This document shows positions 3,369 through 44,408 of a stretch of 64,000 nt of DNA, piece by piece. Position numbers and translations under genes: made by a program. The notes under the pieces were generated by a model. The model searched no databases, was not told the origin of the DNA, and worked only from the letters and a program-made list of their open reading frames with translations. Positions within the stretch are counted from its first letter, which is position 1, and every line of letters begins with the position of its first letter. This DNA comes from Escherichia coli (GTDB taxonomy: Bacteria; Pseudomonadota; Gammaproteobacteria; Enterobacterales; Enterobacteriaceae): NCBI RefSeq assembly GCF_044324875.1, contig NZ_CP172186.1, one strand, 5' to 3'.

Positions 3369-3381
3369 GAAGGAGACGAGA

Positions 3382-3816
3382 ATGTACGGAACATGCGAAA
3401 CGCTATGCCGGGCGCTGGCAGCAAAGTATCCGGGAGATACGCCGCTGATGCTGGTTATCTGGTCCCCGGAAGAAATTCAGGCCCTCGCTGACGGAATGGA
3501 TATTTCCCTGTCCGATCATGAAATCAGGACTGTCCTGGCGCGGCTGGCGGACATCCCGGAAGACCAGCGGACTGAGTCCGGTATTTCTTCCGGCGTGGCG
3601 ATGGAGATTATCAGCAACGTGAGCGAAAACCGCCAGGTGACCGTCCCGGCTGAACTGCTGGCGTCCCTGATTCAGACCGCCGAACAGGCACTGTGGAAAC
3701 GTGAATGGGCCGCCCGTGATTACGGCCTCGCCGTCCCGGAATGCGTCACCCGCCGTCAGGCGGTGGTTAATCAGGCCCGCATCCTGCTGAAAAACAACCC
3801 ACACGAAAACGACTGA
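3382..3816 (+). CDS. leading-region hypothetical protein (paralog of 5518..5937)
   Basis: 144 aa; shares length, acidic character and a VTVPA motif with the 5518 ORF. Confidence 0.6.
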   Translation: MYGTCETLCRALAAKYPGDTPLMLVIWSPEEIQALADGMDISLSDHEIRTVLARLADIPEDQRTESGISSGVAMEIISNVSENRQVTVPAELLASLIQTAEQALWKREWAARDYGLAVPECVTRRQAVVNQARILLKNNPHEND

Positions 3817-3860
3817 TGTTATCGCCGCCTTCGGGCGGCGATTCAGGGAGACCATGAATC

Positions 3861-4631
3861 ATGAACAAAACGCTGAATGCACTGGTTTGTCACCACGCCC
3901 GTAACCTGCTGCTGGCGCAGGGCTGGCCGGAAGAGACGGATGTTGACCAGCGTAACCCGAAGTATCCGGGCTGGATCAGCATTTATGTTCTGCTGGATGC
4001 GCCCCGGCTGGCGACGTTACTTATCAACCGTCACGGCGGCGTACTGCCGCCGCTCCTGGCCTCCGCCATTCACAAACTGACCGGAACCGGGGCGGAAGTT
4101 GTACTGTCCGGCAGTCAGTGGCAGTCGCTGCCGGTACTTCCGGCAGACGGAACGCAGGTGTCTTTCCCGTATGCCGGAGAATGGCTGACCGAAGACGAAA
4201 TCAGGGCAGTTCTTGATGCAGTGCGCGATGCGGTACGCAGTGTCAGTTGCCGGGTGACAGAAGATGCGCGGCGTATCAGGGCGGCGCTGACCACAACCGG
4301 TCAGACGTTGCTGACCCGCCAGACGCGGCGCTTTCGCCTGGTTGTGAAGGAAAGCGATCACCCCTGCTGGCTCGATGAAGACGACGAAAACCTGCCCGTG
4401 GTGCTCGATGCCATCCTGAACCGGGGCGCTCGTTTTTCTTCGGTGGAAATGTATCTGGTCAGTGAGTGTGTGGAGCATATCCTGTCCAGTGGGCTGGCCT
4501 GCGATGTGCTGCGTATACCGGATGAACCGCCCCGCCGGTGGTTTGACCGTGGTGTTCTGCGGGAGGTGGTCCGGGAAGCCCGGGCCGAAATCCGCAGCAT
4601 GGCGGATGCCCTGGCAAAAATCCGGAAATGA
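3861..4631 (+). CDS. leading-region hypothetical protein
   Basis: 256 aa ORF, same strand and codon style as neighbours. Confidence 0.6.
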
Positions 4632-4687
4632 TGACGCTGGCGGGGAAAAATCTCCGCCTTTTCCAGCCGGTCCCCGGAAAGAGCAAA

Positions 4688-5040
4688 AGGATGTCGCCGC
4701 AGGCTCCGCTTTACTCGGCCATGCGGGGCATGGCCTTGTGGGTTTTCAGTTATGTGGCCTCAGCGTCGTGTGCGGGCTGTGCCGTGCCTCCATCGTAGCC
4801 GGGCTTCTGCGGGCGGGTTGCAAGGTAAGGTGAACCGCTGCGGTCACCCGGTCCCTCCTTCCCGTCTGCCGTGATTTTCCGGTCGTTCACCCGCTCAGAT
4901 TTCGCGGTCTCACCCTCCAACTCCCGCCAGCCGTGTGCGTCAGGCTGCGGCTTCCCTTGCGCCCTTGCAACCCTGCAGGCCCGGCAAAGATGGAGGCACG
5001 GCACCGCCCGGTGTCGCGGAATATGTGAACAACGGAGGAA
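4688..5040 (+). promoter_or_regulatory. single-strand-promoter-like structured element, family A copy 1 (upstream of klcA)
   Basis: ~350-bp GC-rich element with long-range inverted repeats (TGCCGTGCCTCCATC ... GATGGAGGCACGGCA), near-identical to 16918..17275. Confidence 0.5.
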
Positions 5041-5045
5041 ATCCC

Positions 5046-5471
5046 ATGCAGTATGCGAAACCTGTCACCCTGAACGTTGAAGAGTGCGACCGCCTTTCTT
5101 TTCTGCCTTACCTGTTTGGCAACGATTTTCTGTATGCCGAGGCGTATGTGTACGCGCTGGCGCAAAAAATGATGCCGGAATATCAGGGAGGCTTCTGGCA
5201 TTTCATCCGCCTGCCGGACGGTGGCGGTTACATGATGCCGGATGGCGACCGTTTTCATCTGGTCAACGGTGAAAACTGGTTTGACCGCACTGTGAGTGCT
5301 GATGCCGCAGGCATCATTGTTACGTCTCTTGTGATTAACCGCCAGTTGTGGCTGTACCACGACAGCGGGGATGCGGGACTGACACACCTGTACCGGATGC
5401 GTGATGCGCAGTTGTGGCGTCACATCGAATTTCACCCCGAATGCAACGCGATTTACGCGGCACTGGACTGA
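5046..5471 (+). CDS. klcA: antirestriction protein KlcA/ArdB family
   Basis: 141 aa from MQYAKPVTLNVEECDRLSFLPYLFGNDFLYAEAYVYALAQ..., recalled KlcA/ArdB signature. Confidence 0.75.
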   Translation: MQYAKPVTLNVEECDRLSFLPYLFGNDFLYAEAYVYALAQKMMPEYQGGFWHFIRLPDGGGYMMPDGDRFHLVNGENWFDRTVSADAAGIIVTSLVINRQLWLYHDSGDAGLTHLYRMRDAQLWRHIEFHPECNAIYAALD

Positions 5472-5517
5472 TTAACGGACGGGGCGGCAATGCCGCCCCT
5501 GTAAAGGAGACGAGAAC

Positions 5518-5937
5518 ATGTACTGTACTGTTAAAGAAATTATCCGCGAAGTGCTGAATACAGACGTGCCGGACAGTGAATGTGTTTTTGCCGTGGTGCT
5601 GACCCGCGGGGATGTGCGCCACATAGCCCGGGACTGGAACCTGTCAGACGATGAGCTGGAAACCGTCATGCAGCGGCTGGACGATGCTTTTGTATATGGC
5701 GCATGTGACAGAGTTGTTTCCGATATTGTCAATGAACTGATGGAGGAAAAGCGCGTAAACCGTCTTGTAACAGTTCCTGCGGTGCTGCTGGAAAAAGTGA
5801 TGGTGATGGCTGGTAGTGAAATTTATCGCCTCCATGCTGTAGGGAGCGAGAACGGGGGCGACGGTGACGCATTTGTCAGGGAAGAACGTGAGATTATGCG
5901 GGTAATGCGTCAGGCGCTGGACGGGGAGAACGGGTAA
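5518..5937 (+). CDS. leading-region hypothetical protein (paralog of 3382..3816)
   Basis: 139 aa; RBS GGAGACGAG. Confidence 0.6.
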   Translation: MYCTVKEIIREVLNTDVPDSECVFAVVLTRGDVRHIARDWNLSDDELETVMQRLDDAFVYGACDRVVSDIVNELMEEKRVNRLVTVPAVLLEKVMVMAGSEIYRLHAVGSENGGDGDAFVREEREIMRVMRQALDGENG

Positions 5938-6128
5938 TGAATATCAGCACGGAAACCCGCGAAATTCTGCGTAATTACAGGGCCGTGATTAATGCGCGGC
6001 GTCGTGAAATGGGGCAGAAACCGCTCACCACCGCGCAGATTGTTGATGAAATCTGTGATTTTGTGGCGAATCAGCAGGCGGTTTTCCTCGGTGGTCACTA
6101 TATCCTTCAGGGCAGCAGGCACAGGTGA
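5937..6128 (+). CDS. hypothetical small protein
   Basis: 63 aa, start overlaps previous stop. Confidence 0.35.
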   Translation: MNISTETREILRNYRAVINARRREMGQKPLTTAQIVDEICDFVANQQAVFLGGHYILQGSRHR

Positions 6129-6289: not shown

Positions 6290-6875
6290 AAAGAACCTTC
6301 TTACACATGCGCCCCTTCGGCTCCCGGCTGCCTGGCGGCATCCGGTCGTCAGGCCCGACTCCGACAGGCAGCTGCTGGCGCACCCGCCAGTCTCCGCCGA
6401 ACCCGCTGGCGCGGTTTCGGGCTGTCGCTACGGTCCGATGCGTGAAAACCCGGGCTTGCAGCGACCGTTCCGGTCGCGCCGCCTCTGTCGCGCCGTGACC
6501 TGCGCTCCCTGCACACCTGACGGTGTGTGAGGAAACTGCGCCTGATGGCGCAGCAGTCCTCCCTCCTGCCGCCACCTCTGCGGCCTGTTTCCCGCTGTGG
6601 ACTTTCCGGGGGGCAGACGTAACCCCCTCCCGTTCCATCTGTCCAGGGTGAGATGCACCGGCCACAAAATTTTTAGCCATGAACCCGGCAAAAAATTTTG
6701 CGTCCGCCCCCGGACAGCTGCCCCGTGAGGCGGTAAACGGGCCCCCATCGGAAAGGTCCACTGCGGGGAGAAACCCCTGTGAAGTGGACGGCAGGAGGAG
6801 CTTTCGCTCCTCTGAAGGGGCACATGAACGTCCCGTCGCCGGTATCCGGTTTATCTCACATCTTTCAGTCAGGAG
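6290..6875 (+). promoter_or_regulatory. single-strand-promoter-like structured element, family B copy 1 (upstream of ssb)
   Basis: ~580-bp GC-rich repeat also found at 17935..18505 and, 3' part only, 20990..21380; contains CCACAAAA(C/T)TTTT...GCGTC(C/T)GCCCCCGGACA(G/A)CTGCCCCGTG core. Confidence 0.5.
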
Positions 6876-6881
6876 GTTCTT

Positions 6882-9800
6882 ATGAGTGCACGTGGTATCA
6901 ACAAGGTCATCCTCGTCGGGGTGCGCCGTTGAAGCGCGGTGTTTTATGGAGTGTTGCCTGAAAAGCAACATGGCTTAGTGGTATAGCCATTGCATACTGT
7001 GGTTAGCCTTGCTTGGTAACAGGCTCGGAGATCCTGAAAAGGAGAGGTGAACATAGCATCCACAGAAAAGGGTGGTGAATATGGAAATCGTTATAAGTAT
7101 CACCATTCAATGCAAGATGTATATGGATAAACTGGGTTTGTTGAAGTCGAGATCTATGTGGGAAACAGGAAACCAATAACGCAGAACGATTGAAGCGTTA
7201 TTCCCGTACTAGCACAAGAAATCCGTCCGACGTTGATTGTGACCACTCTAACGGGCCAGCTATTGATGAAATAGTTAAACGATCGAAAGACATCCTAAGT
7301 ACATCGCATCTCCACACCGTGAAACTACGGGACTACCTAAACTGGATTTATACCCAGCATGGTAGCGGAGTCTCCATAGTACTCAAGGTCGGCCTGTAAT
7401 GGGTTCCGGCAGTCCGCATTATACGGAAGCAGCAAAGGTATAAATCAACCGGAAGGAAGATGAAAGCCTCACAGTGCTGCGGGGAAGGGAGACAGTTGTT
7501 AGATACATCAATCTCTAAGAGGAGGGTTAGCCAATGCTGCCTGATGAACTTGAGAAAAGATTAGATGGAATTGAGGATGCTTCAAAAAAAGGGTATCCAG
7601 TACGTAATCTATACAAAATTGCGTGTGAGCCCGGACTGTGGCTGCAAGCCTACGTGAATATACGGGCCAATGCAGGTGCACTGACTCAAGGTGTATCAAC
7701 AGATACCATTGATGGCTTTTCTATCGAAAGAGCAGAGAAGCTGGCAAAAACATTGCGGAGTAGAGAATACGTAGCGAAACCTGTACGCAGAGTTCAGATC
7801 CCAAAAAAGGACGGAAAAACCAGACCGCTGGGGATTCCAGGTGGAGACGATAAACTGGCGCAAGAAGTAGCAAGAATTATTCTGGAAAGGGTTTATGAAC
7901 CAGTATTCTCTGAACACTCTCATGGATTCAGACCAAAACGTTCGTGTGAAACTGCGCTCAGATCTATTCGTCCAGTCTGGAACGGAGTTAAATGGATCGT
8001 GGATGTTGATATCAAAGGTTTCTTTGACAATATCCCCCACAAACTATTGCTGAATACACTGGCAGAGAAAATTAAGGATAAGAATTTCCTGAAATTAATC
8101 GAACAGTGGCTGAAGGCAGGATATGTGGACAATTGGAAATACCATCGCTCATATTCTGGCACGCCACAAGGTGGGATAATTTCTCCCTTACTGGCAAATA
8201 TATACCTCGACAAACTGGACCGTTTTGTAGAACAGAATTTAATTCCTGCATATACAAGCGGTACAAAACGAAGAGCGAATCCAGATATGAACAGGCTGGC
8301 CCATAAGATTCATAAACTACGAAAGAAAGTAGACGGTATGGCAACTGATTCTGAATCAGAAAAAGAAGCCATAAAGAAAGAAATTGAACGACTGCTTGAA
8401 GAAAAACGTTCTATACCATCTCAGGTCATGAACGATCCAAACTTCAGGCGTATGTACTATGTTCGATATGCTGATGACTTCGTAATCGGTGTCATCGGCT
8501 CGAAGAAAGATGCTGAACATATATCAAGACAGGTCAGAAACTTTATTACTACTTCACTGGGATTGGAAGTTAATGAAGCAAAGACCAGGATCCGCCATAT
8601 CTCAGAAGGAGTTAATTTTTTAGGCTATGAAATCAGACAGGCAGATGCAAAGAAATTGCTGAAGCAGAAAATGCAAGGGCGGCACGCTCTCCGGAGATCC
8701 ACCACAGGAATTGTGCAGCTCTTCGTTCCTGACAATATAGCCGCTAAATTTTGTCACCAAAAGAAATATGGCTGTTATGAGAATGTGAAGGCTGTACATC
8801 GTTCAAGTCTACAAAATCTCAGTGAAGCTGAAATTGTTCTGACTTTCAACGCGGAAATGCGCGGATTGGCGAACTACTACAGTCTGGCGCTGGACATGAA
8901 ATATAAATTATCAAAATTATATTTCATATGGCAAATAAGCCTTTTTAAGACCCTGGCGAATAAACGACGTAGTTCAGTGAATAAAGTCGCCAAATCGCTA
9001 CGGCAAAATAATGGAGATCTGGCTATTACCGTTCAGGCCAAAAATGGATCCCGAAAGATTGAGGTTTTCAAACTCAAACATGTCAATCGCAACCGAACAA
9101 CGATTGTCGATACGGAACCGAGAACCGCACATATCACAACCCGCACAACAGAGATCATGCGTCGATTAGGGGCAAGGATCTGCGAGTATTGTGCGAAGAC
9201 TGGGCGCTGCGAAGTACATCATGTCAGAAAGCTAAAAGACCTGAAGAAAGGTCGTAAGGCCGGATATAAACCCAGCTTGTGGCAACTAATGATGATCGCA
9301 CGCCGCCGGAAAACGATGATTTTGTGCGCAAGTTGCCACGACAAGTTACATAGCGGAAAACTACCCGATTTGAGACAGGAAAAGGGAAGAATACTCCTGC
9401 AACCACCTGTCTCAAGCGGGGATTCTGCTAAATGAGTTTATCCCCAATAAGCTAGCAATGGAGAGCCGTATGCACTGAAAGGTGCACGTACGGTTCGGAG
9501 GGGGGGTAACGGTGATCTAACTCAAGATAAGCAGGACATATTCGCCATTTATCTTGAAAGACCACACGTACCCTACCCTACCGTCTGGGCAATGATCCGG
9601 AAGTCTGTTACATCCCCAACGGGGGCGCAGTGGCAAACCTGCAGGTCGCCACGTCAGAAAGCTGGCGCGACAAACAGACGGGGGAGATGCGGGAGCAGAC
9701 GGAATGGCACCGCGTGGTGCTGTTCGGCAAGCTCGCGGAAGTGGCTGGTGAATATCTGCGCAAGGGCGCGCAGGTCTACATCGAGGGGCAACTCCGTACC

Positions 9801-10064
9801 CGTAGCTGGGAGGATAACGGTATCACCCGTTACGTCACTGAAATTCTTGTTAAGACCACGGGCACCATGCAGATGCTGGGGAGTGCACCACAGCAGAACG
9901 CTCAGGCGCAACCGAAGCCTCAGCAGAATGGGCAGCCACAGAGTGCTGACGCGACGAAAAAAGGTGGCGCGAAAACGAAAGGCCGTGGACGTAAGGCCGC
10001 GCAGCCGGAGCCTCAGCAGCCGTCTGAACCCGCGTATGACTTCGATGACGACATTCCGTTCTAA
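6882..10064 (+). CDS. ssb: plasmid single-stranded DNA-binding protein, split by a group II intron (exon 1 6882..6920, exon 2 9582..10064)
   Basis: Exon 1 [13 protein letters not shown]; exon 2 [35 protein letters not shown]...DDIPF; exons are in frame and together match the plasmid SSB N-terminus. Confidence 0.8.
7534..9435 (+). CDS. group II intron-encoded reverse transcriptase/maturase with HNH endonuclease domain
   Basis: 633 aa; RT motifs [31 protein letters not shown]; C-terminal CEYC...HHV...CASCHDKLH zinc/HNH motif. Confidence 0.9.
   Translation: MLPDELEKRLDGIEDASKKGYPVRNLYKIACEPGLWLQAYVNIRANAGALTQGVSTDTIDGFSIERAEKLAKTLRSREYVAKPVRRVQIPKKDGKTRPLGIPGGDDKLAQEVARIILERVYEPVFSEHSHGFRPKRSCETALRSIRPVWNGVKWIVDVDIKGFFDNIPHKLLLNTLAEKIKDKNFLKLIEQWLKAGYVDNWKYHRSYSGTPQGGIISPLLANIYLDKLDRFVEQNLIPAYTSGTKRRANPDMNRLAHKIHKLRKKVDGMATDSESEKEAIKKEIERLLEEKRSIPSQVMNDPNFRRMYYVRYADDFVIGVIGSKKDAEHISRQVRNFITTSLGLEVNEAKTRIRHISEGVNFLGYEIRQADAKKLLKQKMQGRHALRRSTTGIVQLFVPDNIAAKFCHQKKYGCYENVKAVHRSSLQNLSEAEIVLTFNAEMRGLANYYSLALDMKYKLSKLYFIWQISLFKTLANKRRSSVNKVAKSLRQNNGDLAITVQAKNGSRKIEVFKLKHVNRNRTTIVDTEPRTAHITTRTTEIMRRLGARICEYCAKTGRCEVHHVRKLKDLKKGRKAGYKPSLWQLMMIARRRKTMILCASCHDKLHSGKLPDLRQEKGRILLQPPVSSGDSAK
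9461..9494 (+). ncRNA. group II intron domain V (catalytic hairpin)
   Basis: 34-nt hairpin GAGCCGTATGCAC-TGAAAG-GTGCACGTACGGTTC matching the domain V pattern. Confidence 0.65.
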
Positions 10065-12864: not shown

Positions 12865-13071
12865 GCGCATGCAAAATGGCATCTGAATCGATCGCAGTTT
12901 GGCATTCGAATCGATCATGATTTGGCATCCATCTCCGATCACAGTTTGGCATCACAATCGATCACGATTTGGCATGCTTCCGATCATTGATTGGCATCCT
13001 GCCAGTCACTCCGGGAATTAACTCTTTTCACCACAGTCTCCATTGCCGTGTTTAAACCAGTGGAGACGTCA

Positions 13072-14637
13072 ATGTCCAGAAAGAGAAAATCCAGGAGCAC
13101 TATGGAAACCTGTTTTAAGATCCTTCAGCTCAAGTTCGACAAGAAGCTGACTAACCGTTGTATCGGACTGACGTTACACATCAGCGCCTCAACCGTTTTT
13201 GAGGTTCTTGCCCGCTTCAAAGCCTCTTCTCTGTCATGGCCATTACCTGCTGATATATCCCATGACACGCTGGAGAAACTCATTTTTCCGCCCAAAGACA
13301 CCTTTGCATCAGAGCTTGTAATGCCTGACATGTTGTACTTCGATACGGAAATGAGAAAACCAGGTGTGACGCGGCAACTGTTGTGGATGGAATACAAGGC
13401 ACAGGCGGGTAACAAAGCGATGGGATACTCGCACTTCTGCCGTTGCTACCGGGAGTGGAAAAAAACGCGACGTCTCTCCATGCGCCAGGAGCATCGTGCC
13501 GGCGAAAAGCTTTTTATCGACTTCTGTGGTCCTACGGTTCCTGTTATTAATCCGGACACCGGTGAGATACGCCGCGTGGCAATCTTCGTGGCCGTAATGG
13601 GGGCGTCCAACTATACCTACGTTGAAGCGTGCGAAGGTCAGGACATGATGTCATGGTTAAATGCCCACAGCCGTTGCCTGACCTTCCTGGGCGGCGTACC
13701 GAAGCTGCTCATCCCCGATAACCTCAGAAGCGCAGTGAAAAAGGCCGATCGATATGAGCCTGTCATCAACGACAGTTATCAGGCACTGGCTGAGCACTAT
13801 GGCACGGTTATCATCCCGGCCCGACCACGCAAACCTAAAGATAAACCAAAAGCAGAAAACGGCGTCCTCATCGTTGAACGATGGCTTCTTGCCCGCATCC
13901 GTAATGAAACCTTCCACACGCTCAGGGCGCTGAATGCGCGCCTTAGGGAGTTACTGACAGACATGAATAACCGGCCAATGAAGGGGTACGGCAATCAAAC
14001 CCGTGCAGAACGCTTCCGCATACTGGATGCGCCAGCACTCTCTCCGCTGCCTCTGGCACCTTATGAATACACGGAATACAAAGCTGTGAAGGTTGGCCCT
14101 GACTACCACGTTGAATATGCCCGTCACTGGTACTCCGTTCCACACGAACTGGTCGGTCAGCGTCTGTCACTGAAGGCGGGGCAGTCGGTGGTACAGCTCT
14201 GGCACAAGGGGCAGTGTGTGGCGCAACATCCGCGCAGCACACATGAATATAAACACACAACCAATCCGCTTCACATGCCAGAGCGCCACCGGCAGCACGG
14301 GACATGGACACCGGAACGCCTGATCGAGCAGGGAAAACGTACGGGCCCGTCCACAGGCCGGGTGGTTGAATCCATGCTGAAGGCAAAACCCCATCCGGAA
14401 CTGGCTTATCGTGCAGTTCTGGGGCTGCTGGCACTTCAGAAAAAATACGGCCCGGAACGGCTGGAAAAGGCCTGTTACGTTGCCCTGCACTATAACGCCC
14501 CTGACAGACGCTTTATCGACAATCTGCTGCGTCACCATCGGGAGAACCTGGAGCTTCCATTATCCCGCCAGGGCGAACAACATCCGGCATATGCTTCAGA
14601 GCATGAAAACCTGCGTGGTCCGGGCTACTACCACTGA
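13072..14637 (+). CDS. istA: IS21-family transposase IstA
   Basis: ~521 aa, HTH N-terminus and DDE integrase core; start chosen at MSRKRKS after GGAGACG RBS. Confidence 0.85.
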   Translation: MSRKRKSRSTMETCFKILQLKFDKKLTNRCIGLTLHISASTVFEVLARFKASSLSWPLPADISHDTLEKLIFPPKDTFASELVMPDMLYFDTEMRKPGVTRQLLWMEYKAQAGNKAMGYSHFCRCYREWKKTRRLSMRQEHRAGEKLFIDFCGPTVPVINPDTGEIRRVAIFVAVMGASNYTYVEACEGQDMMSWLNAHSRCLTFLGGVPKLLIPDNLRSAVKKADRYEPVINDSYQALAEHYGTVIIPARPRKPKDKPKAENGVLIVERWLLARIRNETFHTLRALNARLRELLTDMNNRPMKGYGNQTRAERFRILDAPALSPLPLAPYEYTEYKAVKVGPDYHVEYARHWYSVPHELVGQRLSLKAGQSVVQLWHKGQCVAQHPRSTHEYKHTTNPLHMPERHRQHGTWTPERLIEQGKRTGPSTGRVVESMLKAKPHPELAYRAVLGLLALQKKYGPERLEKACYVALHYNAPDRRFIDNLLRHHRENLELPLSRQGEQHPAYASEHENLRGPGYYH

Positions 14638-14653
14638 CAGAAGGAACAACAGT

Positions 14654-15409
14654 ATGAGTGATAACCTGTTAAACAAACTGACCCAACTGAAACTCCCGGC
14701 GATGGCCGGGAGCCTGATACGGCAGCGGGAAACGCCTCAGACCTACGACGAACTGTCGTTCGAGGAAAGGCTGACGCTGCTGGTTGATGACGAGCTTCTG
14801 AGCAGGGAAAACAGCCGTGTGGCACGGTTGAGAAAAAATGCCGGCCTGAAATACCAGGCAACACCGGAAGGGCTGCGCTATCCGGCCTCAAGAGGTCTGC
14901 GGGCTGAACAGATGAGAGAACTGCTGAACGGCCACTACATAACCCACAGGAAAAACCTGCTGATAACCGGTCCGACAGGATGTGGCAAGAGCTGGATAGC
15001 CAATGCGCTGGGCGAACAGGCATGTCGACAGAAACACAGCGTCCGGTACTGTAGAACCGGGCGATTACTGGAACAACTGGCTCAGGGACGTGTTGATGGC
15101 AGCTGGCTGAAATATCTGAAACAGTTGCAAAAAATACAGGTTCTAATCCTGGACGATCTGGGGCTGGAACAGTTAAGTAACGCCCAGTGTAATGACCTTC
15201 TGGAGCTCATAGAGGATCGTTACGGACAAAGCAGCACGATAGTGGTAAGCCAGTTCCCGGTAGATAAATGGCATGGTCTGATGGAGAACCCAACAACAGC
15301 AGATGCCATCCTGGACAGACTGGTACATAACTCACACCGAGTGGTCCTTCAGGGAGAGTCACTGAGGAAAAATCCCCCGGTAGTGGAAAGCAGCGAAAAA
15401 ACGCGTTAA
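14654..15409 (+). CDS. istB: IS21-family helper ATPase IstB
   Basis: 251 aa; Walker A LLITGPTGCGKSW, Walker B ILILDDLG. Confidence 0.9.
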   Translation: MSDNLLNKLTQLKLPAMAGSLIRQRETPQTYDELSFEERLTLLVDDELLSRENSRVARLRKNAGLKYQATPEGLRYPASRGLRAEQMRELLNGHYITHRKNLLITGPTGCGKSWIANALGEQACRQKHSVRYCRTGRLLEQLAQGRVDGSWLKYLKQLQKIQVLILDDLGLEQLSNAQCNDLLELIEDRYGQSSTIVVSQFPVDKWHGLMENPTTADAILDRLVHNSHRVVLQGESLRKNPPVVESSEKTR

Positions 15410-15509: not shown

Positions 15510-16225
15510 GCGCACGTTCACGGGCACTGATCCCCCTCAGCGCAGAACAACAGGCCGCTATGCAGGCTGTGGCTGTCACCGAACAACGTCGTCGTCAGGG
15601 ACGCACACTTTCAGCATGGCCTTATGCCACCGCTTTCTTTCGCTGCCTGAATGGCAGTCGCCGGATTTCGCTGACCGATCTCCGCTTTTTTGCCCCTGCG
15701 CTGACGAAGGAGGAATTTCATGGCAACCGTCTCCTGTGGCTGGCTGCAGTGGACAAACTGATTGAAAGTTTTGGTGAAGTCTGTGTTCTTCCCCTGCCAT
15801 CCGATGCGGGGCATCGTTTGTTCCCGTCCGTTCCTTTTCGTGAAGGTGAGCGGCGTCGTCAGAAAACCACGCTGACAGAGCAGAAATACAGCCGCCAGCG
15901 GGAACGTGAGGCAGAACGACGGGAACGGGAATACCAGACATGTTTTGCTCAGGCGCAGATTGACCTTGCGTTTCATACTCCCGCCACGGTCGGAAGCTGG
16001 TTGTCCCGCTGGTCTGGTGTTGTTGAGGAGCATGATCTGGAAACGATTTTCTGGGGGTGGTGCGGGCGTTTTCCATCACTGTCATCATTTGACCGGTTTT
16101 TCTGGCAGGAGGAACCACTCTGGCGGTTGATTTTTGAAGCCGGTGAGGCCGGTCGTGGTGCACCGGTACAGGTACGTGCACTTGAGCAGTGGATGATCCC
16201 GAACAAGCTGGAGAACGTAATATGA
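15510..16225 (+). pseudogene. psiA: plasmid SOS inhibition protein PsiA, separated from its first three codons (12861..12869) by the IS21-family insertion
   Basis: Joining ATGAGCGCA to the sequence after the IS gives MSARSRALIPLSAEQQAAMQAVAVTEQRRRQGRTLSAWPY..., matching PsiA. Confidence 0.8.
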
Positions 16226-17934: not shown

Positions 17935-18505
17935 TGTTGTTCTGATGCCCGGAGGCGGGGACACCCTTCGGCTCCCGGCTGCCTGGCGGCATCCGGTCGT
18001 CGGCCCGACTCCGACAGGCAGCTGCTGGCGCACCCGCCAGTCTCCGCCGAACCCGCTGGCGCGGTTTCGGGCTGCCGCTACGGTCCGATGTCTGAAAAAC
18101 CAGGCCTGCAGCGACCGTTCCGGTCGCGCCGCCCCTGTCGCGCCGGAAACGGCGCTCCCTGCACACCTGACGGTGTGTAAGGCCACTGCGCCTGATGGCG
18201 CAGTCAACCCTTCCGCCGCCACCCCTGCGGCCTGTTTCCCGCTGTGGACTTTCCGGGGGCTGAAGCGGCCACAACACGGGGCAGCCGTCCAGGGGAGAGA
18301 TGTACCAGCCACAAAACTTTTTGCCGCAGGCGTCAAAAACTTTTGCGTCTGCCCCCGGACAACTGCCCCGTGCCGTGGCAGTCGCTGCCCCATCGGAAAG
18401 GTCCACTGCGGGGAGAAACCCCGAAGAAGTGGACGGCAGAAGGGGCTTTCGCCCCTCCGGGGGAGCAACCGGTCGGCCCGGCGACCTGATTCAGCAGAAG
18501 GAGAC
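17935..18505 (+). promoter_or_regulatory. single-strand-promoter-like structured element, family B copy 2
   Basis: Near-identical to 6290..6875. Confidence 0.5.
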
Positions 18506-20989: not shown

Positions 20990-21380
20990 TGTTGTGCCGT
21001 CGTTTTTCTTCAGTCGCGCCGGATGCGGCGCTCCCTGCACACCTTACGGTGTGTAAGGCCACTGCGCCTGATGGCGCAGCTGCCTCTGCCTGTCTGCCGC
21101 CGCACTGCGGCCTGTTCTCCGCAGACGGACTTTCCGGGGGTACATACACGACCACATCCCGTTTCAGTCGTCCAGGGGAGAGATGTACCAGCCACAAAAC
21201 TTTTTGCCGCAGGCGTCAAAAACTTTTGCGTCTGCCCCCGGACAACTGCCCCGTGACGTGGTGAGCGTCCCCCGTCGGAAAGGTCCACTGCGGGGAAATC
21301 CCCGAAGACCCGGACGGCAGAAGGAGCTTCGCTCCTCCGGGAAATGACCTGGCTGACCCGGCAGTCGTGACGATGAGGAG
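20990..21380 (+). promoter_or_regulatory. single-strand-promoter-like structured element, family B copy 3 (3' two-thirds only)
   Basis: Matches the 3' part of 6290..6875 and 17935..18505. Confidence 0.45.
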
Positions 21381-23234: not shown

Positions 23235-25937
23235 ATGAATGCCATCATTCCGAAAAAAAGACGCGACGGAAAGTCTTCTTTTGAAGACCTGATTGCGTAC
23301 ACCTCAGTGCGGGATGATGTGCCGGAAGATGAACTCAGACCAGACACGGAAGTGAAAGGTGAGGTTCCGCACCGGAATCGCTTCAGACGTCTTGTTGATT
23401 ATGCAACACGTCTGCGTAATGAAAAATTTGTTTCCCTGATTGATGTGATGAAAGACGGCAGTCAGTGGGTGAATTTCTATGGTGTGACCTGCTTTCATAA
23501 CTGTTTGTCTCTTGAATCTGCGGCTGAAGAAATGCAGAAAGCAGCAGACCTTGCTTATTTTTCCAAAGATGATACAGATCCTGTTTTTCACTATATTCTC
23601 TCCTGGCCTGCGCACGAAAGTCCGCGTTCTGAGCAGCTTTTTGACTGTGTGCGTCACACCCTGAAATCCCTTGAGCTGTCAAAACATCAGTATGTGGCAG
23701 CCGTTCATACAGACACGGATAACCTGCATGTACATGTTGCAGTGAATCGTGTCCACCCTGAAACCGGCTATATCAATTGCCTTCCGTGGAGCCAGGAAAA
23801 ACTCAGCCGTGCATGTCGTGAACTTGAACTTAAGCACGGATTCGCGCCGGATAATGGCTGCTTTGTGCATGCACCCGGCAACCGTATTGTGCGCAAAACA
23901 GCGCTGGTACGTGAGCGCCGTAATGCCTGGCGACGCGGGAAAAAGCAGACGTTCAGGGAATATATTGCTCAGATGTCGATTGCCGGGCTGCGTGAAGAGC
24001 CTGCACAGGACTGGTTATCTTTGCATAAACGGCTGGCCAGCGATGGTCTGTATATCACGATGCAGGAAGGGGAACTGGTGGTGAAGGATGGCTGGGACAG
24101 AGCGCGGGAAGGTGTTGCACTCAGTTCGTTCGGACCGTCATGGACAGCTGAAAAACTGGGGCGGAAACTGGGGGAATATCAGCCTGTACCGACAGATATT
24201 TTCAGTCAGGTGGGGACACCCGGTCGTTATGATCCGGAAGCCATAAACGTTGATATCCGGCCGGAAAAAGTGGCAGAAACGGAGAGTCTGAAACAGTACG
24301 CCTGCCGTCACTTTGCTGAACGCTTACCGGCAATGGCGCGCAATGGTGAACTGAAAAGCTGCCTGGCTGTACACCGTACTCTGGCAGAGGCGGGATTATG
24401 GATGGGGATCCAGCACGGGCATCTGGTACTGCATGATGGATTTGATAAACAACAGACACCAGTACGTGCAGACAGTGTGTGGCCGTTGTTAACGCTGGAA
24501 AATATCAGAAAACTGAATGGCGGCTGGCAGTCTGTACCGAAGGATATTTTTACTCAGGTTGTACCACAAAGTCGCTTTAGTGGGCATCGAATGGATATGC
24601 ATCCGGTCAGTGATCATGAATGGCACAGAATGAGAACAGGGGCTGGCCCACAGGGGGCAATTAAGCGGGAGATTTTCTCTGACAAAGAGAGTCTGTGGGG
24701 ATATGCAGTCAGCCATTGTGCCCGTGATATTCAGTACATGATCTCTGAAGGGCGCTTTAGCTGGCAGAACTGCCATGAACTGTTTGCCCGCAGTGGACTG
24801 ATGTTACAGAAACTGCATCATGGTCTTGTGATTGTGGATGCGTTTAATCATGACCAGACACCGGTTAAAGCCAGCAGCATTCATCCGGATTTGACTTTGT
24901 CCAGAGCAGAGCCGCAGGCCGGGCCATTTGAAATTGCAGCGGCGGATATTTTCGATCGGGTGAAGCCTGAAAGCCGTTATAACCCTGATATGGCTGTCAG
25001 TGACAGTAAGGAACCCGGGTTTAAACGGGATCCTGAATTGCGCCGCCGTCGTCGTGAAACCCGTGCAGCTGCGCGGGAAGATTTGCGTGCGCGTTACCTT
25101 GCATGGAAGGAGCACTGGCGTAAACCCGATTTACGTTACGGCGAACGGTTACGGGAAGTTCATGCTGCCTGCCGCCGGCGCAAGGCGCATATCCGCGTAC
25201 AGTTCAGGGATCCGCAAGTGCGTAAGCTGCATTACCATATTGCGGAAGTGCAGCGAATGCAGGCGCTGATCAGGCTGAAGGAAAGCGTCAGGGAAGAGCG
25301 ACTGTCGCTGATGGCGGAAGGTAAGTGGTACCCGCTGTCTTACAGGCAGTGGGTGGAGCAGATGGCGGTTCAGGGGGATTCTGCTGCTGTATCTCAGTTA
25401 CGTGGATGGAATTATCGCGACAGAAGGAATGATGAGGTGCTTTTAACCACGCCTCAACGCTGTGTGGTTCTTTGTGAACCAGGCTCCACCCCGATTCACA
25501 GGGATATCGGTGGCATGGTGGCGACTTTGCAGCGTAATGGCAGTGTGCGTTTCCGTGATGCGACAACAGGAGAGTACGTCTGTACAGATTATGGTGATCG
25601 CGTTGTTTTCAGCAACAGTGCCGATAACAAAACACTGAAGAAAAGGATGGTCAGGGTGTCCAGTGTGCTTTTTGCAAGGGATCCCCGAATGGGGTTTGAG
25701 CCGGAAGGTCAGGATGCACAATTTAACCGTATGTTTGCTGATATGGTTGCGTGGAAAAACGTGCAGCGGGATGAGCGTAAGGGGCACTACAGGATAAGTC
25801 GTTCTGATGTTGATCAACTGAGGGTCAGTAGTGAAAAACGTTTTCGTGATTATCTTAAAGGGCGTGATACTGAATCACACACTTACCATCATGCAACGGA
25901 TGAAAATAAGTGGGAGCCGCCATCACCGGGGATGTAA
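23235..25937 (+). CDS. nikB: relaxase NikB (MOBP-type)
   Basis: 900 aa; N-terminal relaxase domain with HxDTDNLHVHVAVNRV histidine motif. Confidence 0.85.
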   Translation: MNAIIPKKRRDGKSSFEDLIAYTSVRDDVPEDELRPDTEVKGEVPHRNRFRRLVDYATRLRNEKFVSLIDVMKDGSQWVNFYGVTCFHNCLSLESAAEEMQKAADLAYFSKDDTDPVFHYILSWPAHESPRSEQLFDCVRHTLKSLELSKHQYVAAVHTDTDNLHVHVAVNRVHPETGYINCLPWSQEKLSRACRELELKHGFAPDNGCFVHAPGNRIVRKTALVRERRNAWRRGKKQTFREYIAQMSIAGLREEPAQDWLSLHKRLASDGLYITMQEGELVVKDGWDRAREGVALSSFGPSWTAEKLGRKLGEYQPVPTDIFSQVGTPGRYDPEAINVDIRPEKVAETESLKQYACRHFAERLPAMARNGELKSCLAVHRTLAEAGLWMGIQHGHLVLHDGFDKQQTPVRADSVWPLLTLENIRKLNGGWQSVPKDIFTQVVPQSRFSGHRMDMHPVSDHEWHRMRTGAGPQGAIKREIFSDKESLWGYAVSHCARDIQYMISEGRFSWQNCHELFARSGLMLQKLHHGLVIVDAFNHDQTPVKASSIHPDLTLSRAEPQAGPFEIAAADIFDRVKPESRYNPDMAVSDSKEPGFKRDPELRRRRRETRAAAREDLRARYLAWKEHWRKPDLRYGERLREVHAACRRRKAHIRVQFRDPQVRKLHYHIAEVQRMQALIRLKESVREERLSLMAEGKWYPLSYRQWVEQMAVQGDSAAVSQLRGWNYRDRRNDEVLLTTPQRCVVLCEPGSTPIHRDIGGMVATLQRNGSVRFRDATTGEYVCTDYGDRVVFSNSADNKTLKKRMVRVSSVLFARDPRMGFEPEGQDAQFNRMFADMVAWKNVQRDERKGHYRISRSDVDQLRVSSEKRFRDYLKGRDTESHTYHHATDENKWEPPSPGM

Positions 25938-26854: not shown

Positions 26855-28144
26855 TGAACCGCCCCGGAAATCCTGGAGACTAAACTTCCTGAGAAAGATG
26901 TAAACAGGATGACTAAAAATACTCGTTTTTCCCCCGAAGTCCGTCAACGGGCAGTTCGTATGGTTCTGGAAAGCCAGGGCGAATATGACTCACAATGGGC
27001 GGCAATTTGTTCCATTGCTCCAAAGATTGGCTGTACGCCAGAGACCCTGCGTGTCTGGGTTCGCCAGCATGAGCGGGATACCGGGGGCGGTGATGGTGGG
27101 CTCACCACCGCTGAACGTCAGCGTCTGAAAGAGCTGGAACGCGAAAATCGTGAACTGCGCCGCAGTAACGATATCCTTCGCCAGGCTTCCGCTTATTTTG
27201 CGAAGGCGGAGTTCGACCGCCTCTGGAAAAAATAATGCCACTGCTGGATAAGCTGCGTGAGCTGCAGTGAGCTGCATATTGCCCCGTCAACGTATTACCA
27301 CTGTCAGCAACAGCAGCATCATCCTGATAAACGCAGCGCCCGTGCGCAGCGTGATGACTGGCTGAAGAAAGAGATACAGCGCGTATACGATGAAAATCAC
27401 CAGGTGTACGGTGTGCGTAAAGTCTGGCGTCAGTTGTTACGGGAAGGTATCAGAGTGGCCAGATGCACTGTGACACGTCTTATGGCGGTTATGGGTTTTG
27501 CCGGTGTTCTCCGGGGTAAAAAGGTCCGCATTACCGTCAGCCGGAAAGCCGTTGCCGCAGGCGACCGCGTAAACCGTCATTTCGTGGCAGAACGTCCTGA
27601 CCAGCTGTGGGTGGCTGATTTTACTTACGTCAGCACATGGCAGGGCTTTGTTTATGTGGCGTTCATCATTGATGTGTTTGCCGGATACATCGTGGGATGG
27701 CGGGTCTCCTCGTCCATGGAAACGACATTCGTGCTGGATGCACTGGAGCAGGCGTTGTGGGCCCGTCGTCCGTCTGGCACCATCCATCACAGCGATAAAG
27801 GCTCTCAGTATGTATCGCTGGCCTACACGCAGCGGCTTAAGGAAGTCGGATTACTGGCATCAACAGGGAGCACAGGCGACTCGTATGACAACGCGATGGC
27901 GGAGAGCATCAATGGTCTTTACAAGGCGGAGGTAATACACCGTAAGAGCTGGAAAAACCGGACAGAAGTGGAGCTGGCTACACTCACGTGGGTGGACTGG
28001 TATAACAATCGACGATTGCTGGAAAGGCTGGGCCATACTCCCCCGGCAGAAGCAGAAAAAGCTTATTATGCTTCCATCGGAAACAATGATCTGGCAGCCT
28101 GAGTTCACAGACAAAACATTCTCCAGGAAACCCGGGGCGGTTCA
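26855..28144 (+). mobile_element. IS629/IS1203-like IS3-family element, copy A (small internal deletion, frameshifted orfB)
   Basis: Ends TGAACCGCCCCGG...CCCGGGGCGGTTCA; orfA 26909..27235, orfB remnant 27257..28102; ~20 bp missing at orfA/orfB junction relative to copy C. Confidence 0.85.
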
Positions 28145-42541: not shown

Positions 42542-42557
42542 ACTGTTGTTCCTTCTG

Positions 42558-44123: not shown

Positions 44124-44408
44124 TGACGTCTCCACTGGTTTAAACACGGCAATGGAGACTGTGGTGAAAAGAGTTAATTCCCGGAGTGACTGGCAGGATG
44201 CCAATCAATGATCGGAAGCATGCCAAATCGTGATCGATTGTGATGCCAAACTGTGATCGGAGATGGATGCCAAATCATGATCGATTCGAATGCCAAACTG
44301 CGATCGATTCAGATGCCATTTTGCAGGTAAAAATGGCAATTTTTTTCATGCTGTATTTTTGCCATTTATTTTCTTTGAAATGGTTTTTTTCTTCATATCA
44401 GCAAATAA

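What the first reader, a model, noticed from the sequence alone, without database searches (positions are those of the whole stretch)
6882..10064. Group II intron with RT/maturase/HNH ORF splitting the plasmid ssb gene after codon 13
ssb reads [13 protein letters not shown], then 2661 bp beginning GTGCGCC with a 633-aa RT-maturase-HNH ORF and a domain V hairpin, then resumes in frame with [21 protein letters not shown]. ssb is among the first genes expressed in the recipient, so its product here depends on accurate splicing of transferred DNA. The insertion also lies directly downstream of a single-strand promoter copy, raising the question whether the intron targets transferred or replicating single-stranded DNA.
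Basis: seen in the sequence. Interest (0 to 1): 0.6.

Follow-up and report, generated by a model that had tools for sequence, protein, structure and literature searches.

The report
Mobile group II intron inside ssb

Summary
A 2661-nt group II intron occupies 6921-9581. Exon 2 (9582-10064) resumes in frame and gives a 173-aa SSB ending DFDDDIPF. The intron has GUGCG...AC ends, an Rfam domain V/VI hit, and a domain I-III fold backed by covariation. It encodes an intact 633-aa RT/maturase/HNH protein closest to LtrA, so it is mitochondrial-like class IIA.

It is not new. The same protein (WP_000936285.1) and a 99.3% identical intron lie in ssb of pEC958, whose single group II intron is published as E.c.I11. 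Copies occur on 514 PLSDB plasmids and in 8% of complete E. coli genomes. Empty sites exist on thousands of plasmids.

Co-resident IncF and IncI plasmids carry 100% identical introns in flanks only 72-88% identical, which indicates recent retrohoming.

Relatives with 50-84% protein identity, from Xenorhabdus to Chloroflexota, sit at the same ssb codon. Their exon-binding loops covary with each host's exon sequence.

An ssDNA promoter-like repeat does lie just upstream. However, the transferred strand is the antisense of the target, so incoming single-stranded DNA cannot be the substrate.

Verdict: real, functional-looking, already known; moderate interest.

The parts
6313..6812 (+). ssi/Frpo-like repeat, first of three direct copies in the leading region. 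Its core imperfect inverted repeat is about 6562-6798. It is the presumed single-stranded-DNA promoter of the ssb operon, active on the - (transferred) strand.
   Evidence: Copies at 17964-18457 (86%) and 21010-21337 (80%), and a self-inverted match 6562-6798. The - strand folds at -113 kcal/mol, z = -8.9. ssi3 is listed as the Frpo homologue directly upstream of ssb in IncI plasmids (supplement of PMC10104558). Promoter activity was not tested here.
6882..6920 (+). ssb exon 1, 13 codons ([13 protein letters not shown]). It contains IBS2 (6910-6913, UCCU) and IBS1 (6914-6920, CGUCGGG).
   Evidence: pairing analysis.
6921..9581 (+). Group II intron, 2661 nt, class ML/IIA, equal to E.c.I11 (IncI-type variant). 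G+C is 44% against 59% in the flanks.
6926..7330 (+). Ribozyme domain I.
   Evidence: Consensus fold of 8 relatives; coordinates mapped from alignment A3.
7167..7170 (+). EBS2 (AGGA), in an internal loop of domain I. It pairs with exon positions -8 to -11.
   Evidence: Each loop pairs better with its own exon than with other exons; permutation fraction 2e-4.
7224..7232 (+). delta (CG, 7224-7225) followed directly by EBS1 (UCCGACG, 7226-7232), in the terminal loop of hairpin 7213-7241. EBS1 pairs with exon -1 to -7 and delta with exon 2 positions +1 and +2.
   Evidence: 7/7 and 2/2 pairs with the window's own exons. Covaries with exons across relatives, permutation fraction 5.6e-4. Two of the 18 differences from the IncF variant fall in EBS1.
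7333..7365 (+). Ribozyme domain II (short hairpin).
7370..7493 (+). Ribozyme domain III.
7506..7525 (+). Weakly supported stem at the start of domain IV, spanning the ORF's Shine-Dalgarno sequence (GGAGG). It is in the position of the protein-binding site DIVa of Ll.LtrB.
   Evidence: Helix 35: 4 pairs, none with changes on both sides. The role is inferred by analogy with Ll.LtrB.
7534..9435 (+). Intron-encoded protein, 633 aa. It has an RT domain (YADD at 312), a maturase/X domain and a C-terminal HNH endonuclease (CEYC...HH...CASCH). It is identical to WP_000936285.1.
9463..9496 (+). Ribozyme domain V.
   Evidence: Rfam RF00029 alignment.
9499..9579 (+). Ribozyme domain VI, with the bulged branch-point A at 9575, 7 nt from the 3' splice site.
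   Evidence: Rfam RF00029 alignment; sequence check.
9582..10064 (+). ssb exon 2 (codons 14-173 plus stop). delta' is CG at 9582-9583.

Best explanation
This is an intact, recently acquired copy of the mobile group II intron E.c.I11 (mitochondrial-like class, IIA structure), retrohomed into its cognate site in the plasmid ssb gene.

Proposed mechanism. Each step is inferred from the anatomy and from the well-studied relative Ll.LtrB unless marked as shown.
1. ssb is transcribed as a precursor carrying the intron. In a fresh transconjugant this would start at the ssi/Frpo-type promoter on the incoming strand.
2. The 633-aa protein is translated from domain IV, binds the intron and helps it fold.
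3. The intron excises as a lariat using the branch A at 9575. This joins codon 13 to codon 14 and gives mRNA for a full-length SSB.
4. The lariat-protein particle finds empty ssb sites on double-stranded DNA by pairing EBS2, EBS1 and delta with the sense strand. The pairings are shown here by complementarity and covariation.
5. The particle reverse-splices into that strand, the HNH domain nicks the opposite strand a few bases downstream, and the RT copies the intron.
6. Because plasmid ssb is dispensable for transfer (published), the site is a low-cost harbour.

Because the site encodes the conserved N-terminal SSB motif (V/I)G|xLGxxPE, it recurs in many ssb genes of mobile elements. This would explain why a whole clade of these introns lives at this one codon.
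For: Ribozyme:
- GUGCG 5' end and AC 3' end.
- Domains V/VI score 67.4 bits and end on the splice site.
- The domain I-III fold has 170 pairs, 95.3% of cells paired against 38-41% when partners are slid, and 84 pairs with changes on both sides against 12-18 when slid.

Protein:
- RT, X and HNH domains.
- TIGR04416 at 310.7 bits, above its cutoff of 300.
- LtrA is the best solved relative, E = 5.5e-119 over the full length.
- YADD and the HNH cysteines and histidines are present.
- All 7 ORF differences between the two circulating variants are synonymous.

Target pairing:
- EBS1 7/7, EBS2 4/4 and delta 2/2 with the window's own exons.
- Across 10 loci each intron pairs best with its own exon; permutation fractions are 2e-4 and 5.6e-4.

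Mobility:
- 514 plasmids carry the intron and 432 have the same ssb junction.
- At least 1627 plasmids have the empty site, one with 100% identical flanks.
- In strains SA186 and Ec-FL1-1X an IncF and an IncI plasmid in the same cell carry 100% identical introns, while the flanking 600 nt are 72% and 88% identical.

Splicing competence over time:
- In the eight loci read on both sides that have an SSB exon 2 (L002, L003, L004, L005, L008, L091, L092, L103) and in the pair L006/L007, which share one IEP and each supply one side, the exons join in frame to an SSB at the same codon. L009 shows only the 3' side and L010 and L102 only an ssb exon 1. IEP identity ranges from 50 to 84%.

Identity:
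- pEC958's only ltrA is the same protein and lies in ssb. Its intron differs from the window's at 18 of 2661 nt. The pEC958 paper names its single intron E.c.I11.
Against: - No transcript or splicing data exist for this element in anything I could search, so splicing and retrohoming are inferred.
- No Rfam D1-D4 model matches domain I-IV even at E <= 1. I attribute this to those models not covering this class, but that is an assumption.
- All enterobacterial copies are >=98.4% identical where full-length copies were sampled. Intact exons on these plasmids are therefore too recent to prove selection for splicing, especially as plasmid ssb is dispensable (PMC9849209).
- Several copies tolerate 1-3 mismatches in IBS1: pEC958 at -1 and -4, and the Xenorhabdus copy, whose EBS1 fits the enterobacterial exon better than its own. 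RNA pairing alone therefore does not define the site.
- The two co-resident pairs share the same IncF lineage, so they may reflect one cross-family event and not two.
Confidence: 0.9

Rival explanations
1. The intron is a dead insertion. ssb on this plasmid is simply a disrupted pseudogene, as the RefSeq annotation implies, and nothing is spliced.
For: PGAP annotates exon 1 as an 'incomplete' ssb pseudogene and exon 2 as a separate, N-terminally shortened ssb. Plasmid ssb is dispensable for conjugation, so disruption would be tolerated. Decayed copies exist, either 5'-truncated at an IS1 end or split by IS3-family elements.
Against: The ORF is full length and its only differences between variants are synonymous. 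The catalytic domain V, the branch A and the exon-binding sites are intact. The intron has clearly moved recently, and movement requires prior splicing to form the lariat particle. In distant relatives the exons remain in-frame SSB genes. The PGAP calls reflect a pipeline that does not model bacterial introns.
Confidence: 0.06
2. The intron specifically invades single-stranded DNA made during conjugation. The substrate would be either the incoming transferred strand in the recipient or the retained strand in the donor. Its position next to the ssDNA promoter would reflect that.
For: The insertion is 70 nt downstream of an ssi/Frpo-like repeat. Nearly all carriers are conjugative plasmids, 454 of 514. 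Published work on Ll.LtrB shows that endonuclease-independent retrohoming can use nascent strands at replication forks (my own knowledge, not checked here). In the donor, the retained + strand, which does carry the target, is transiently single-stranded during transfer (PMC9849209).
Against: The relaxase gene nikB is at 23235-25937 on the + strand, downstream of the leading genes. The transferred strand is therefore the - strand, the template of ssb, as published for leading-region genes. The IBS2-IBS1-delta' sequence is on the + strand, so the incoming strand carries only its complement and cannot pair with the EBS loops. The protein keeps a complete HNH endonuclease, the hallmark of double-strand target use. 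Relatives occupy the same ssb codon in unrelated elements, which points to recognition of ssb itself; those elements were not scanned for ssi-like repeats. The donor-strand version is not excluded.
Confidence: 0.1
3. The wide distribution reflects vertical inheritance and homologous recombination of a whole ssb::intron segment between plasmids, not intron mobility.
For: Leading regions are conserved and recombine. The IncF flanks in SA186 and Ec-FL1-1X are 100% identical to each other, showing clonal spread of an intron-bearing plasmid. Two sequence classes, 100% and 99.3%, dominate.
Against: Identity drops from 100% to 72% (upstream) and 88% (downstream) exactly at the intron ends between co-resident IncF and IncI plasmids. 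The same intron variant sits in at least two distinct IncF ssb alleles with different junction sequences (GTAGGA|CGC and GTCGGT|CGT). Empty alleles with 100% identical flanks exist. Clonal spread certainly contributes to the counts but cannot create these junctions.
Confidence: 0.05

Closest known systems
E.c.I11, the group II intron of E. coli ST131 plasmid pEC958 (named in PMC4398462 with the naming style of the bacterial group II intron database)
   Same: The intron-encoded protein is identical (WP_000936285.1), the intron length is the same (2661 nt) and it sits at the same position inside ssb. The DNA is 99.3% identical, 18 differences.
   Different: The window carries the variant that predominates on IncI-type and poultry-associated plasmids. 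It differs from the pEC958/IncF variant at two EBS1 bases (T306C, G309T), among others. The paper only lists the intron and does not mention that it lies in ssb. I could not open the database entry itself.
Ll.LtrB of Lactococcus lactis plasmid pRS01, and the related introns that target a conserved site in relaxase genes of Gram-positive conjugative elements (Staddon et al. 2004, cited in PMC3522654)
   Same: Same class: LtrA is the closest solved protein, E = 5.5e-119 over the full length. Same domain order (RT, X, D, En). Same IIA-type recognition, with EBS2, EBS1 and an adjacent delta. Same lifestyle: it sits inside a conserved DNA-processing gene of a conjugative element, at a site conserved across elements.
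   Different: The host gene is ssb and not the relaxase. ssb is dispensable for transfer, whereas the relaxase is essential, so splicing is not coupled to transfer in the same obligatory way. The hosts are Proteobacteria, Chloroflexota and Actinomycetota. Splicing and mobility have been shown experimentally for Ll.LtrB and not for this intron.
Other group II introns of enterobacterial plasmid leading regions: the 2343-bp intron of pHN7A8/FII-33 plasmids (PMC8765060) and the intron in yffB of p1ESBL (PMC10104558)
   Same: They are group II introns that have colonised the leading or backbone region of IncF and IncI plasmids, and they serve as lineage markers.
   Different: They are different elements. 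The pHN7A8 intron is 2343 bp and lies in a 77-aa hypothetical ORF. The p1ESBL intron lies upstream of ssi3 on the opposite strand, leaves ssb intact, and was modelled on a IIB-type protein (6me0). Neither interrupts ssb.
Endonuclease-less introns such as RmInt1, which rely on replication-fork single strands
   Same: They are mobile group II introns with strong site specificity for sequences in mobile elements.
   Different: RmInt1-type proteins lack the D and En domains and depend on nascent lagging strands. This protein has a complete HNH domain, so nothing in its anatomy requires a single-stranded target.

Membership tests
Group II intron (self-splicing ribozyme and retroelement) | Conserved 5' GUGYG and 3' AY boundary sequences | tested here: met
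   GUGCG at 6921-6925 and AC at 9580-9581. The same ends occur in every relative read in full.
Group II intron (self-splicing ribozyme and retroelement) | Catalytic domain V, and domain VI with a bulged branch-point adenosine | tested here: met
   Rfam RF00029 at 67.4 bits (gathering score 40), covering model positions 1-77 of 77. The match ends at the 3' splice site, and the bulged A is at 9575.
Group II intron (self-splicing ribozyme and retroelement) | Structured domains I-III upstream of the ORF | tested here: met
   No Rfam D1-D4 model matches. The consensus fold of 8 relatives has 170 pairs, 95.3% paired against about 40% when slid, and 84 pairs with changes on both sides against 12-18 when slid; none of 500 shuffles reached the observed covariation score. 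The structure was predicted from the same alignment, which favours it somewhat.
Group II intron (self-splicing ribozyme and retroelement) | Exon-binding sites complementary to the flanking exons | tested here: met
   EBS1 7/7, EBS2 4/4 and delta 2/2. Own-exon against other-exon permutation tests give 2e-4 and 5.6e-4.
Group II intron (self-splicing ribozyme and retroelement) | Intron-encoded reverse transcriptase/maturase in domain IV | tested here: met
   RVT_1, Intron_maturas2 and AI2M-like HNH domains. TIGR04416 scores above its curated cutoff.
Group II intron (self-splicing ribozyme and retroelement) | Accurate splicing of the host transcript and retrohoming into empty sites | not testable with these tools
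   Indirect evidence only: empty and occupied alleles with identical flanks, and identical introns in divergent flanks of co-resident plasmids.
Mitochondrial-like (ML) class with IIA RNA structure | The protein groups with LtrA and the yeast aI1/aI2 type, including a C-terminal En domain | tested here: met
   LtrA (5g2x) is the best PDB match by a wide margin: 401 bits against <=166 bits for IIB and IIC proteins. The Pfam families are the AI2M-like HNH and Intron_maturas2. No formal phylogeny was made.
Mitochondrial-like (ML) class with IIA RNA structure | 3' exon recognised by delta, directly 5' of EBS1, and not by a separate EBS3 | tested here: met
   The two bases 5' of EBS1 pair with +1 and +2. 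They change from CG to UU where exon 2 starts with AA instead of CG.
E.c.I11 (named intron) | Sequence identity with the catalogued element | tested here: inconclusive
   The window intron is 99.3% identical to the only group II intron of pEC958, and the protein is identical. The name rests on one sentence of PMC4398462. The database record itself could not be consulted.
Frpo/ssi single-stranded-DNA promoter (for the upstream repeat) | Leading-region repeat that folds as a long hairpin on the transferred strand, upstream of early genes that use that strand as template | tested here: met
   Three direct copies, each upstream of + strand leading genes, with a hairpin z of -8.9. ssi3 is annotated at this position in IncI plasmids.
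Frpo/ssi single-stranded-DNA promoter (for the upstream repeat) | Reconstituted -35/-10 boxes and transcription from single-stranded DNA | not tested
   I did not map the boxes, and promoter activity cannot be tested with these tools.

The most novel reading that the evidence does not exclude
A clade of LtrA-like group II introns has specialised, across at least three phyla, on one codon boundary of ssb genes carried by conjugative and integrative elements. On enterobacterial plasmids this places the intron as the first transcribed sequence behind the conjugation-activated single-stranded-DNA promoter.

Intron RNA and protein would then be made in a burst each time the plasmid enters a new cell. 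That is exactly when resident plasmids with empty ssb sites become available, so conjugation would drive intron spread.

The 2.7-kb insert and the need for splicing would also delay or dampen the early SSB and PsiB pulse during the few minutes the plasmid is single-stranded.

The clade-level site specialisation is shown here. Whether it is unpublished is uncertain. The coupling to zygotic induction and any effect on early gene expression are untested.
Probability: 0.3. Interest if true: 0.65.

Novelty: already known. Interest (0 to 1): 0.4.

Why it matters
In itself this is a routine, catalogued mobile intron, and the main practical lesson concerns annotation. RefSeq records split this gene into an ssb pseudogene fragment, ltrA and a shortened ssb. 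Surveys of leading-region genes will therefore miscount ssb on about 8% of E. coli genomes.

Three points give it some wider value.

1. It is a natural Gram-negative counterpart of the Ll.LtrB-relaxase system. An intron lineage is tied to one conserved codon of a DNA-processing gene on mobile elements, with visible co-variation between the exon-binding loops and each host's codon usage. This offers a clean system for studying how introns retarget.

2. The essential chromosomal ssb keeps 10 of the 13 pairing positions yet is never invaded in 5426 genomes. That gives a simple test case for what protects housekeeping genes.

3. The intron sits directly behind a promoter that fires only on incoming single-stranded DNA. 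This makes it easy to test whether intron expression and spread are tied to conjugation, and whether the intron taxes the early anti-SOS programme.

Tried and rejected
1. Rfam D1-D4 group II models on 6400-9700 at E <= 1 gave no hit beyond domain V/VI. I replaced this test with covariation in relatives.

2. I first took the 'putative group II intron' that made new junctions during experimental evolution of IncI plasmids (PMC10104558) as direct evidence that this intron moves. Its supplement shows a different intron: in yffB, on the opposite strand, upstream of ssi3, with ssb intact. I dropped it.

3. The group II intron of pHN7A8/F33 plasmids is 2343 bp and lies in another ORF. It is not this element.

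4. The survey of group II introns in Enterobacteriales (PMC3522654) does not mention an ssb site or E.c.I11.

Only 2 of those 80 loci have an SSB gene nearby, and there it ends just upstream of the intron and is not split at codon 13. The census of the ssb clade therefore rests on 12 single look-ups.

6. I looked for insertion into the chromosomal ssb with a chimeric junction query and found none in 5426 genomes.

7. I tried to list the 9 chromosomal copies by sampling the ranking. None was sampled, so their sites remain unknown.

8. Full-text searches for a group II intron in ssb found no description of the ssb insertion. Subscription journals are not covered.
Full report
**The observation**

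- ATG at 6882 opens 13 codons ([13 protein letters not shown]) that end at 6920.
- The next 2661 nt begin GTGCGCC and end CCCTAC at 9581.
- The frame resumes at 9582 with [21 protein letters not shown] and runs to a stop at 10062-10064.
- The joined exons give a 173-aa SSB with the canonical acidic tail DFDDDIPF.
- The insert has 44% G+C against 59% in 2 kb on either side.
- The only long ORF inside it is 7534-9435, 633 aa.

**Is it a group II intron?**

Rfam's group II model (RF00029, domains V and VI) matches 9461-9581 at 67.4 bits against a gathering score of 40. The match covers the whole model and ends exactly on the proposed 3' splice site. The bulged branch adenosine is at 9575. None of Rfam's D1-D4 models matches the 5' part, even at E <= 1, so I tested that part by comparison.

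Eight related introns were aligned over the 5' 613-628 nt. They give a consensus fold of 170 pairs in 35 helices.
- 95.3% of cells are paired, against 38-41% when the 3' partners are slid by 1-3 columns.
- 84 pairs change on both sides, against 12-18 in the slid controls.
- None of 500 shuffles reaches the observed covariation score.

In window coordinates the fold gives domain I at 6926-7330, domain II at 7333-7365 and domain III at 7370-7493. A weakly supported stem over the ORF's ribosome-binding site lies at 7506-7525.

The ORF has reverse-transcriptase, maturase and AI2M-like HNH domains. It passes NCBI's curated group II RT/maturase model at 310.7 bits, cutoff 300. It keeps the YADD and the HNH cysteine and histidine motifs. 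Its best solved relative is LtrA of Ll.LtrB, E = 5.5e-119 over the full length, far ahead of IIB and IIC proteins. The intron is therefore of the mitochondrial-like class with IIA-type RNA.

**Exon recognition**

In the window copy, the terminal loop of hairpin 7213-7241 reads CG-UCCGACG (7224-7232).
- UCCGACG pairs with the last seven bases of exon 1 (CGUCGGG), 7 of 7 with one G-U.
- The preceding CG pairs with the first two bases of exon 2.
- AGGA at 7167-7170, in an internal loop, pairs with exon positions -8 to -11.

These assignments do not rest on this one sequence. Across ten loci whose exons differ, each intron's loops pair better with its own exon than with the others' exons. Permutation fractions are 2e-4 for EBS2/IBS2 and 5.6e-4 for EBS1 plus delta.

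Examples: the base opposite -6 is C where the exon has G and U where it has A. Delta is CG where exon 2 starts CG and UU where it starts AA. The Chloroflexota copy has AGCAU opposite AUGCU. Delta lying directly 5' of EBS1 is the IIA arrangement.

**What it is called and how common it is**

The intron is present on 514 plasmids of PLSDB: Escherichia 458, Salmonella 24, Klebsiella 22, Shigella 9 and Enterobacter 1. Of these, 454 are conjugative. It is also in 436 of 5426 complete E. coli genomes, almost always on plasmids.

RefSeq annotates the ORF as ltrA, WP_000936285.1, in every record I opened. Plasmid pEC958 of ST131 carries this protein between an ssb fragment and ssb. Its intron differs from the window's at 18 of 2661 positions. 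The paper on pEC958 states that the plasmid has one group II intron, E.c.I11. The element is therefore already catalogued. I could not open the database entry, and that paper does not say the intron lies in ssb.

Two variants circulate.
- One is 100% identical to the window and was seen mostly on poultry-associated and IncI-type plasmids.
- The other is 99.3% identical and common on human IncF plasmids.
- They differ at 18 bases. The 7 inside the ORF are all synonymous, and two fall in EBS1.

RefSeq does not model the split gene. Exon 1 is either unannotated or called an incomplete pseudogene, and exon 2 is called as a shortened ssb.

**Evidence that it moves**

The joined exon sequence, 200 nt on each side, is found uninterrupted at 100% identity in NZ_CP100501.1. 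At least 1627 plasmids cover >=80% of it, and more than 5000 plasmids carry a related ssb. The exon 1-intron junction is found on 432 plasmids.

The same intron sits in at least three different junction sequences:
- GTCGGG|CGTCTGGGC on IncI-type plasmids;
- GTAGGA|CGCCTGGGA on one IncF allele;
- GTCGGT|CGTCTGGGA on another IncF allele.

The most telling case comes from two strains: SA186 (human urine) and Ec-FL1-1X (broiler chicken). In each, an IncF plasmid and an IncI plasmid share the cell. Both carry introns 100% identical to the window's, while the 600 nt upstream are 72% identical and the 600 nt downstream 88% identical. Identity collapses exactly at the intron ends, which is the signature of retrohoming and not of recombination. 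The IncF flanks of the two strains are identical to each other, so this may represent one cross-family event that then spread clonally.

Decay also occurs. Many large APEC-type plasmids keep only the last 594 nt of the intron, cut at an IS1 end, with exon 1 lost. Other copies are split by IS3-family elements.

**A lineage tied to one codon of ssb**

The closest relatives of the protein have 84, 75, 74, 72, 67 and 66% identity. [quoted passage not shown]

Reading the junctions shows the same arrangement each time. Exon 1 ends ...NKV(I/T)(L/I)(V/I)G, and exon 2 starts (N/H/R)(L/V)G followed by xxPE. The insertion is in phase 0, and the joined product is an SSB wherever both sides were available.

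The pattern continues further out.
- A copy from Ktedonobacteraceae (Chloroflexota), 54% identity, joins MLNKIMLIG to NLGKDPEL.
- A metagenomic copy at 50% identity joins MATVNQVTLIG to NLGKDPEV.
- A Rubrobacter copy at 53% has an SSB-like exon 1 (MRSVLKVILIG), but its exon 2 is not recognisable.

Where neighbours are visible they are typical of integrative or conjugative elements: AcaB, topoisomerase III, a lytic transglycosylase, RadC and DUF3150. They are not the chromosomal uvrA-ssb locus.

Two relatives in the same identity range sit elsewhere. One is in a Rad52-family gene and one is inside the RT gene of another group II intron.

More distant members of the class, <=49% identity in 80 loci from a genome-wide scan, do not share the site.

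The nearest published parallel is the conserved relaxase site of Ll.LtrB-type introns in Gram-positive conjugative elements (Staddon et al. 2004, cited).

**The chromosomal gene**

The essential ssb of E. coli K-12 has nearly the same site. EBS2 would pair 4 of 4 and EBS1 6 of 7, but delta 0 of 2, because exon 2 starts AA and not CG. Position -1 is also mismatched. A chimeric query of chromosomal exon 1 joined to the intron finds no such junction in any of 5426 genomes. Whether this reflects target discrimination or loss of such cells cannot be told from sequence.

**The single-strand promoter and the ssDNA question**

Region 6313-6812 recurs at 17964-18457 and 21010-21337, in the same orientation, each upstream of + strand leading-region genes. 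Its core is a long imperfect inverted repeat that folds far better than shuffled controls, z = -8.9. In IncI plasmids the element at this position is annotated as ssi3, the Frpo homologue. I did not map promoter boxes.

Downstream on the + strand lie a ParB-like gene, an IS21-family insertion, psiA and then the MOBP relaxase at 23235-25937. The leading genes therefore point towards oriT. The transferred strand is the - strand, the template for ssb. This is the published rule for leading-region genes (PMC9849209 and PMC11541004).

A group II intron reverse-splices into the strand that carries IBS2-IBS1-delta', which is the + strand. The strand that enters the recipient therefore holds only the complement of the target and cannot be the substrate. 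This is an inference from strand polarity, not an experiment. The retained + strand in the donor is transiently single-stranded during transfer and remains a formal possibility. However, the intact HNH domain means nothing in the element requires it.

The proximity to the promoter is most simply explained by ssb being the first gene of that operon.

**Consequences**

These points are inferred.
- Published work shows that Frpo2 drives ssbF within minutes of entry, that the promoter shuts off on conversion to double-stranded DNA after about 3 minutes, and that deleting Frpo2 or ssbF does not measurably lower transfer.
- An intron here is therefore cheap for the plasmid.
- It would be transcribed first in every new host.
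- It would add 2.7 kb and a protein-dependent splicing step ahead of SSB, and ahead of the downstream genes if they share the transcript.
- Whether this produces a conjugation-linked burst of intron spread, or blunts the early SSB and PsiB pulse, is the interesting open question and is directly testable.

**Verdict**

The finding is real and correctly interpreted. The element is an ordinary, catalogued, apparently active IIA group II intron. The suggestion that it targets incoming single-stranded DNA is not supported. The added value of this analysis is the clade-wide fidelity to one ssb codon, with co-varying exon-binding sites. I did not find this described in the literature available to me.

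Noticed in passing
window 9606-9608: This ssb allele has TGT (Cys) at codon 22, where pJIE139, the IncF alleles and chromosomal SSB have CGT/CGC (Arg) in the conserved DPEVRY motif. An intron-less plasmid (NZ_CP100501.1) shares the TGT, so the change is not linked to the intron.
   Followed up: partly
window 17964-18457 and 21010-21337: These are two further direct copies (86% and 80%) of the ssi/Frpo-like repeat that precedes ssb, giving three copies in the leading region as in ColIb-P9 (ssi1-3).
   Followed up: partly
window 12991-15409 (+) and 41786-44204 (-): Two IS21-family elements with the same ORF pattern (548-aa and 332-aa ORFs) lie in inverted orientation. The first sits between the ParB-like gene and psiA. 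psiA (15560-16225) matches its profile only from position 19, so the IS probably cut into the psiB-psiA region.
   Followed up: no
window 23235-25937; also 36297-38570 and 48564-50723: A MOBP relaxase (NikB-like), TrbC and DotA/TraY homologues place the window on an IncI-complex conjugative plasmid. oriT should lie just upstream of the relaxase operon, at about 22.3-23 kb.
   Followed up: partly
window 27190-27276, 32840-32956, 57430-57546; 46896-47052; 41133-41220: Rfam finds three ALIL frameshift pseudoknots (IS3-family elements; two are identical and in opposite orientation), a sok antitoxin RNA and an AgrB-like antisense RNA.
   Followed up: no
L002 (Xenorhabdus budapestensis NIBS01000026.1) 3380-6052: The 84%-related intron keeps an EBS1 that fits the enterobacterial plasmid exon (7.5 of 9) better than its own exon (5 of 9). 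This suggests a recent jump from a plasmid-type ssb into a mismatched site. A Hachiman-type gene pair (HamA plus a helicase) lies just downstream.
   Followed up: partly
L094 768-2618 and L095 (metagenome contigs): A 55%-related intron is inserted inside the reverse-transcriptase gene of a second group II intron, at the PQGG|ISP motif, so this is an intron within an intron. Another relative (L093) splits a Rad52/Rad22-family gene.
   Followed up: partly
L098 (NZ_CP126929.1), and 7 further plasmid records sampled: Only the last 594 nt of the intron remain, abutting an IS1 end, with ssb exon 1 deleted. This truncated form recurred in 8 of the 60 records sampled.
   Followed up: partly
L097, L101 (RefSeq records of IncF plasmids): PGAP annotates exon 1 as an 'incomplete' ssb pseudogene and starts the exon 2 CDS a few bases after the intron. 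It also calls short 'frameshifted ssb' pseudogenes 64 nt upstream of the ssb start codon and again further along the leading region.
   Followed up: no
E. coli genome collection: Nine chromosomal copies of the intron, and one genome with eight copies (strain R2, spread over several plasmids), were reported. The chromosomal insertion sites were not located, but none is in the chromosomal ssb.
   Followed up: partly
L077 (Halanaerobiales MAG) 2577-2834 and L049 (Aneurinibacillus) 2707-2922: Two distant class members (about 40% identity) have an SSB gene whose matched part (SSB residues 6-93 and 6-80) ends about 70 nt and at least as far upstream of where the intron should start. The intron may lie late in ssb or downstream of it, so this could be a second, different association with ssb.
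   Followed up: no
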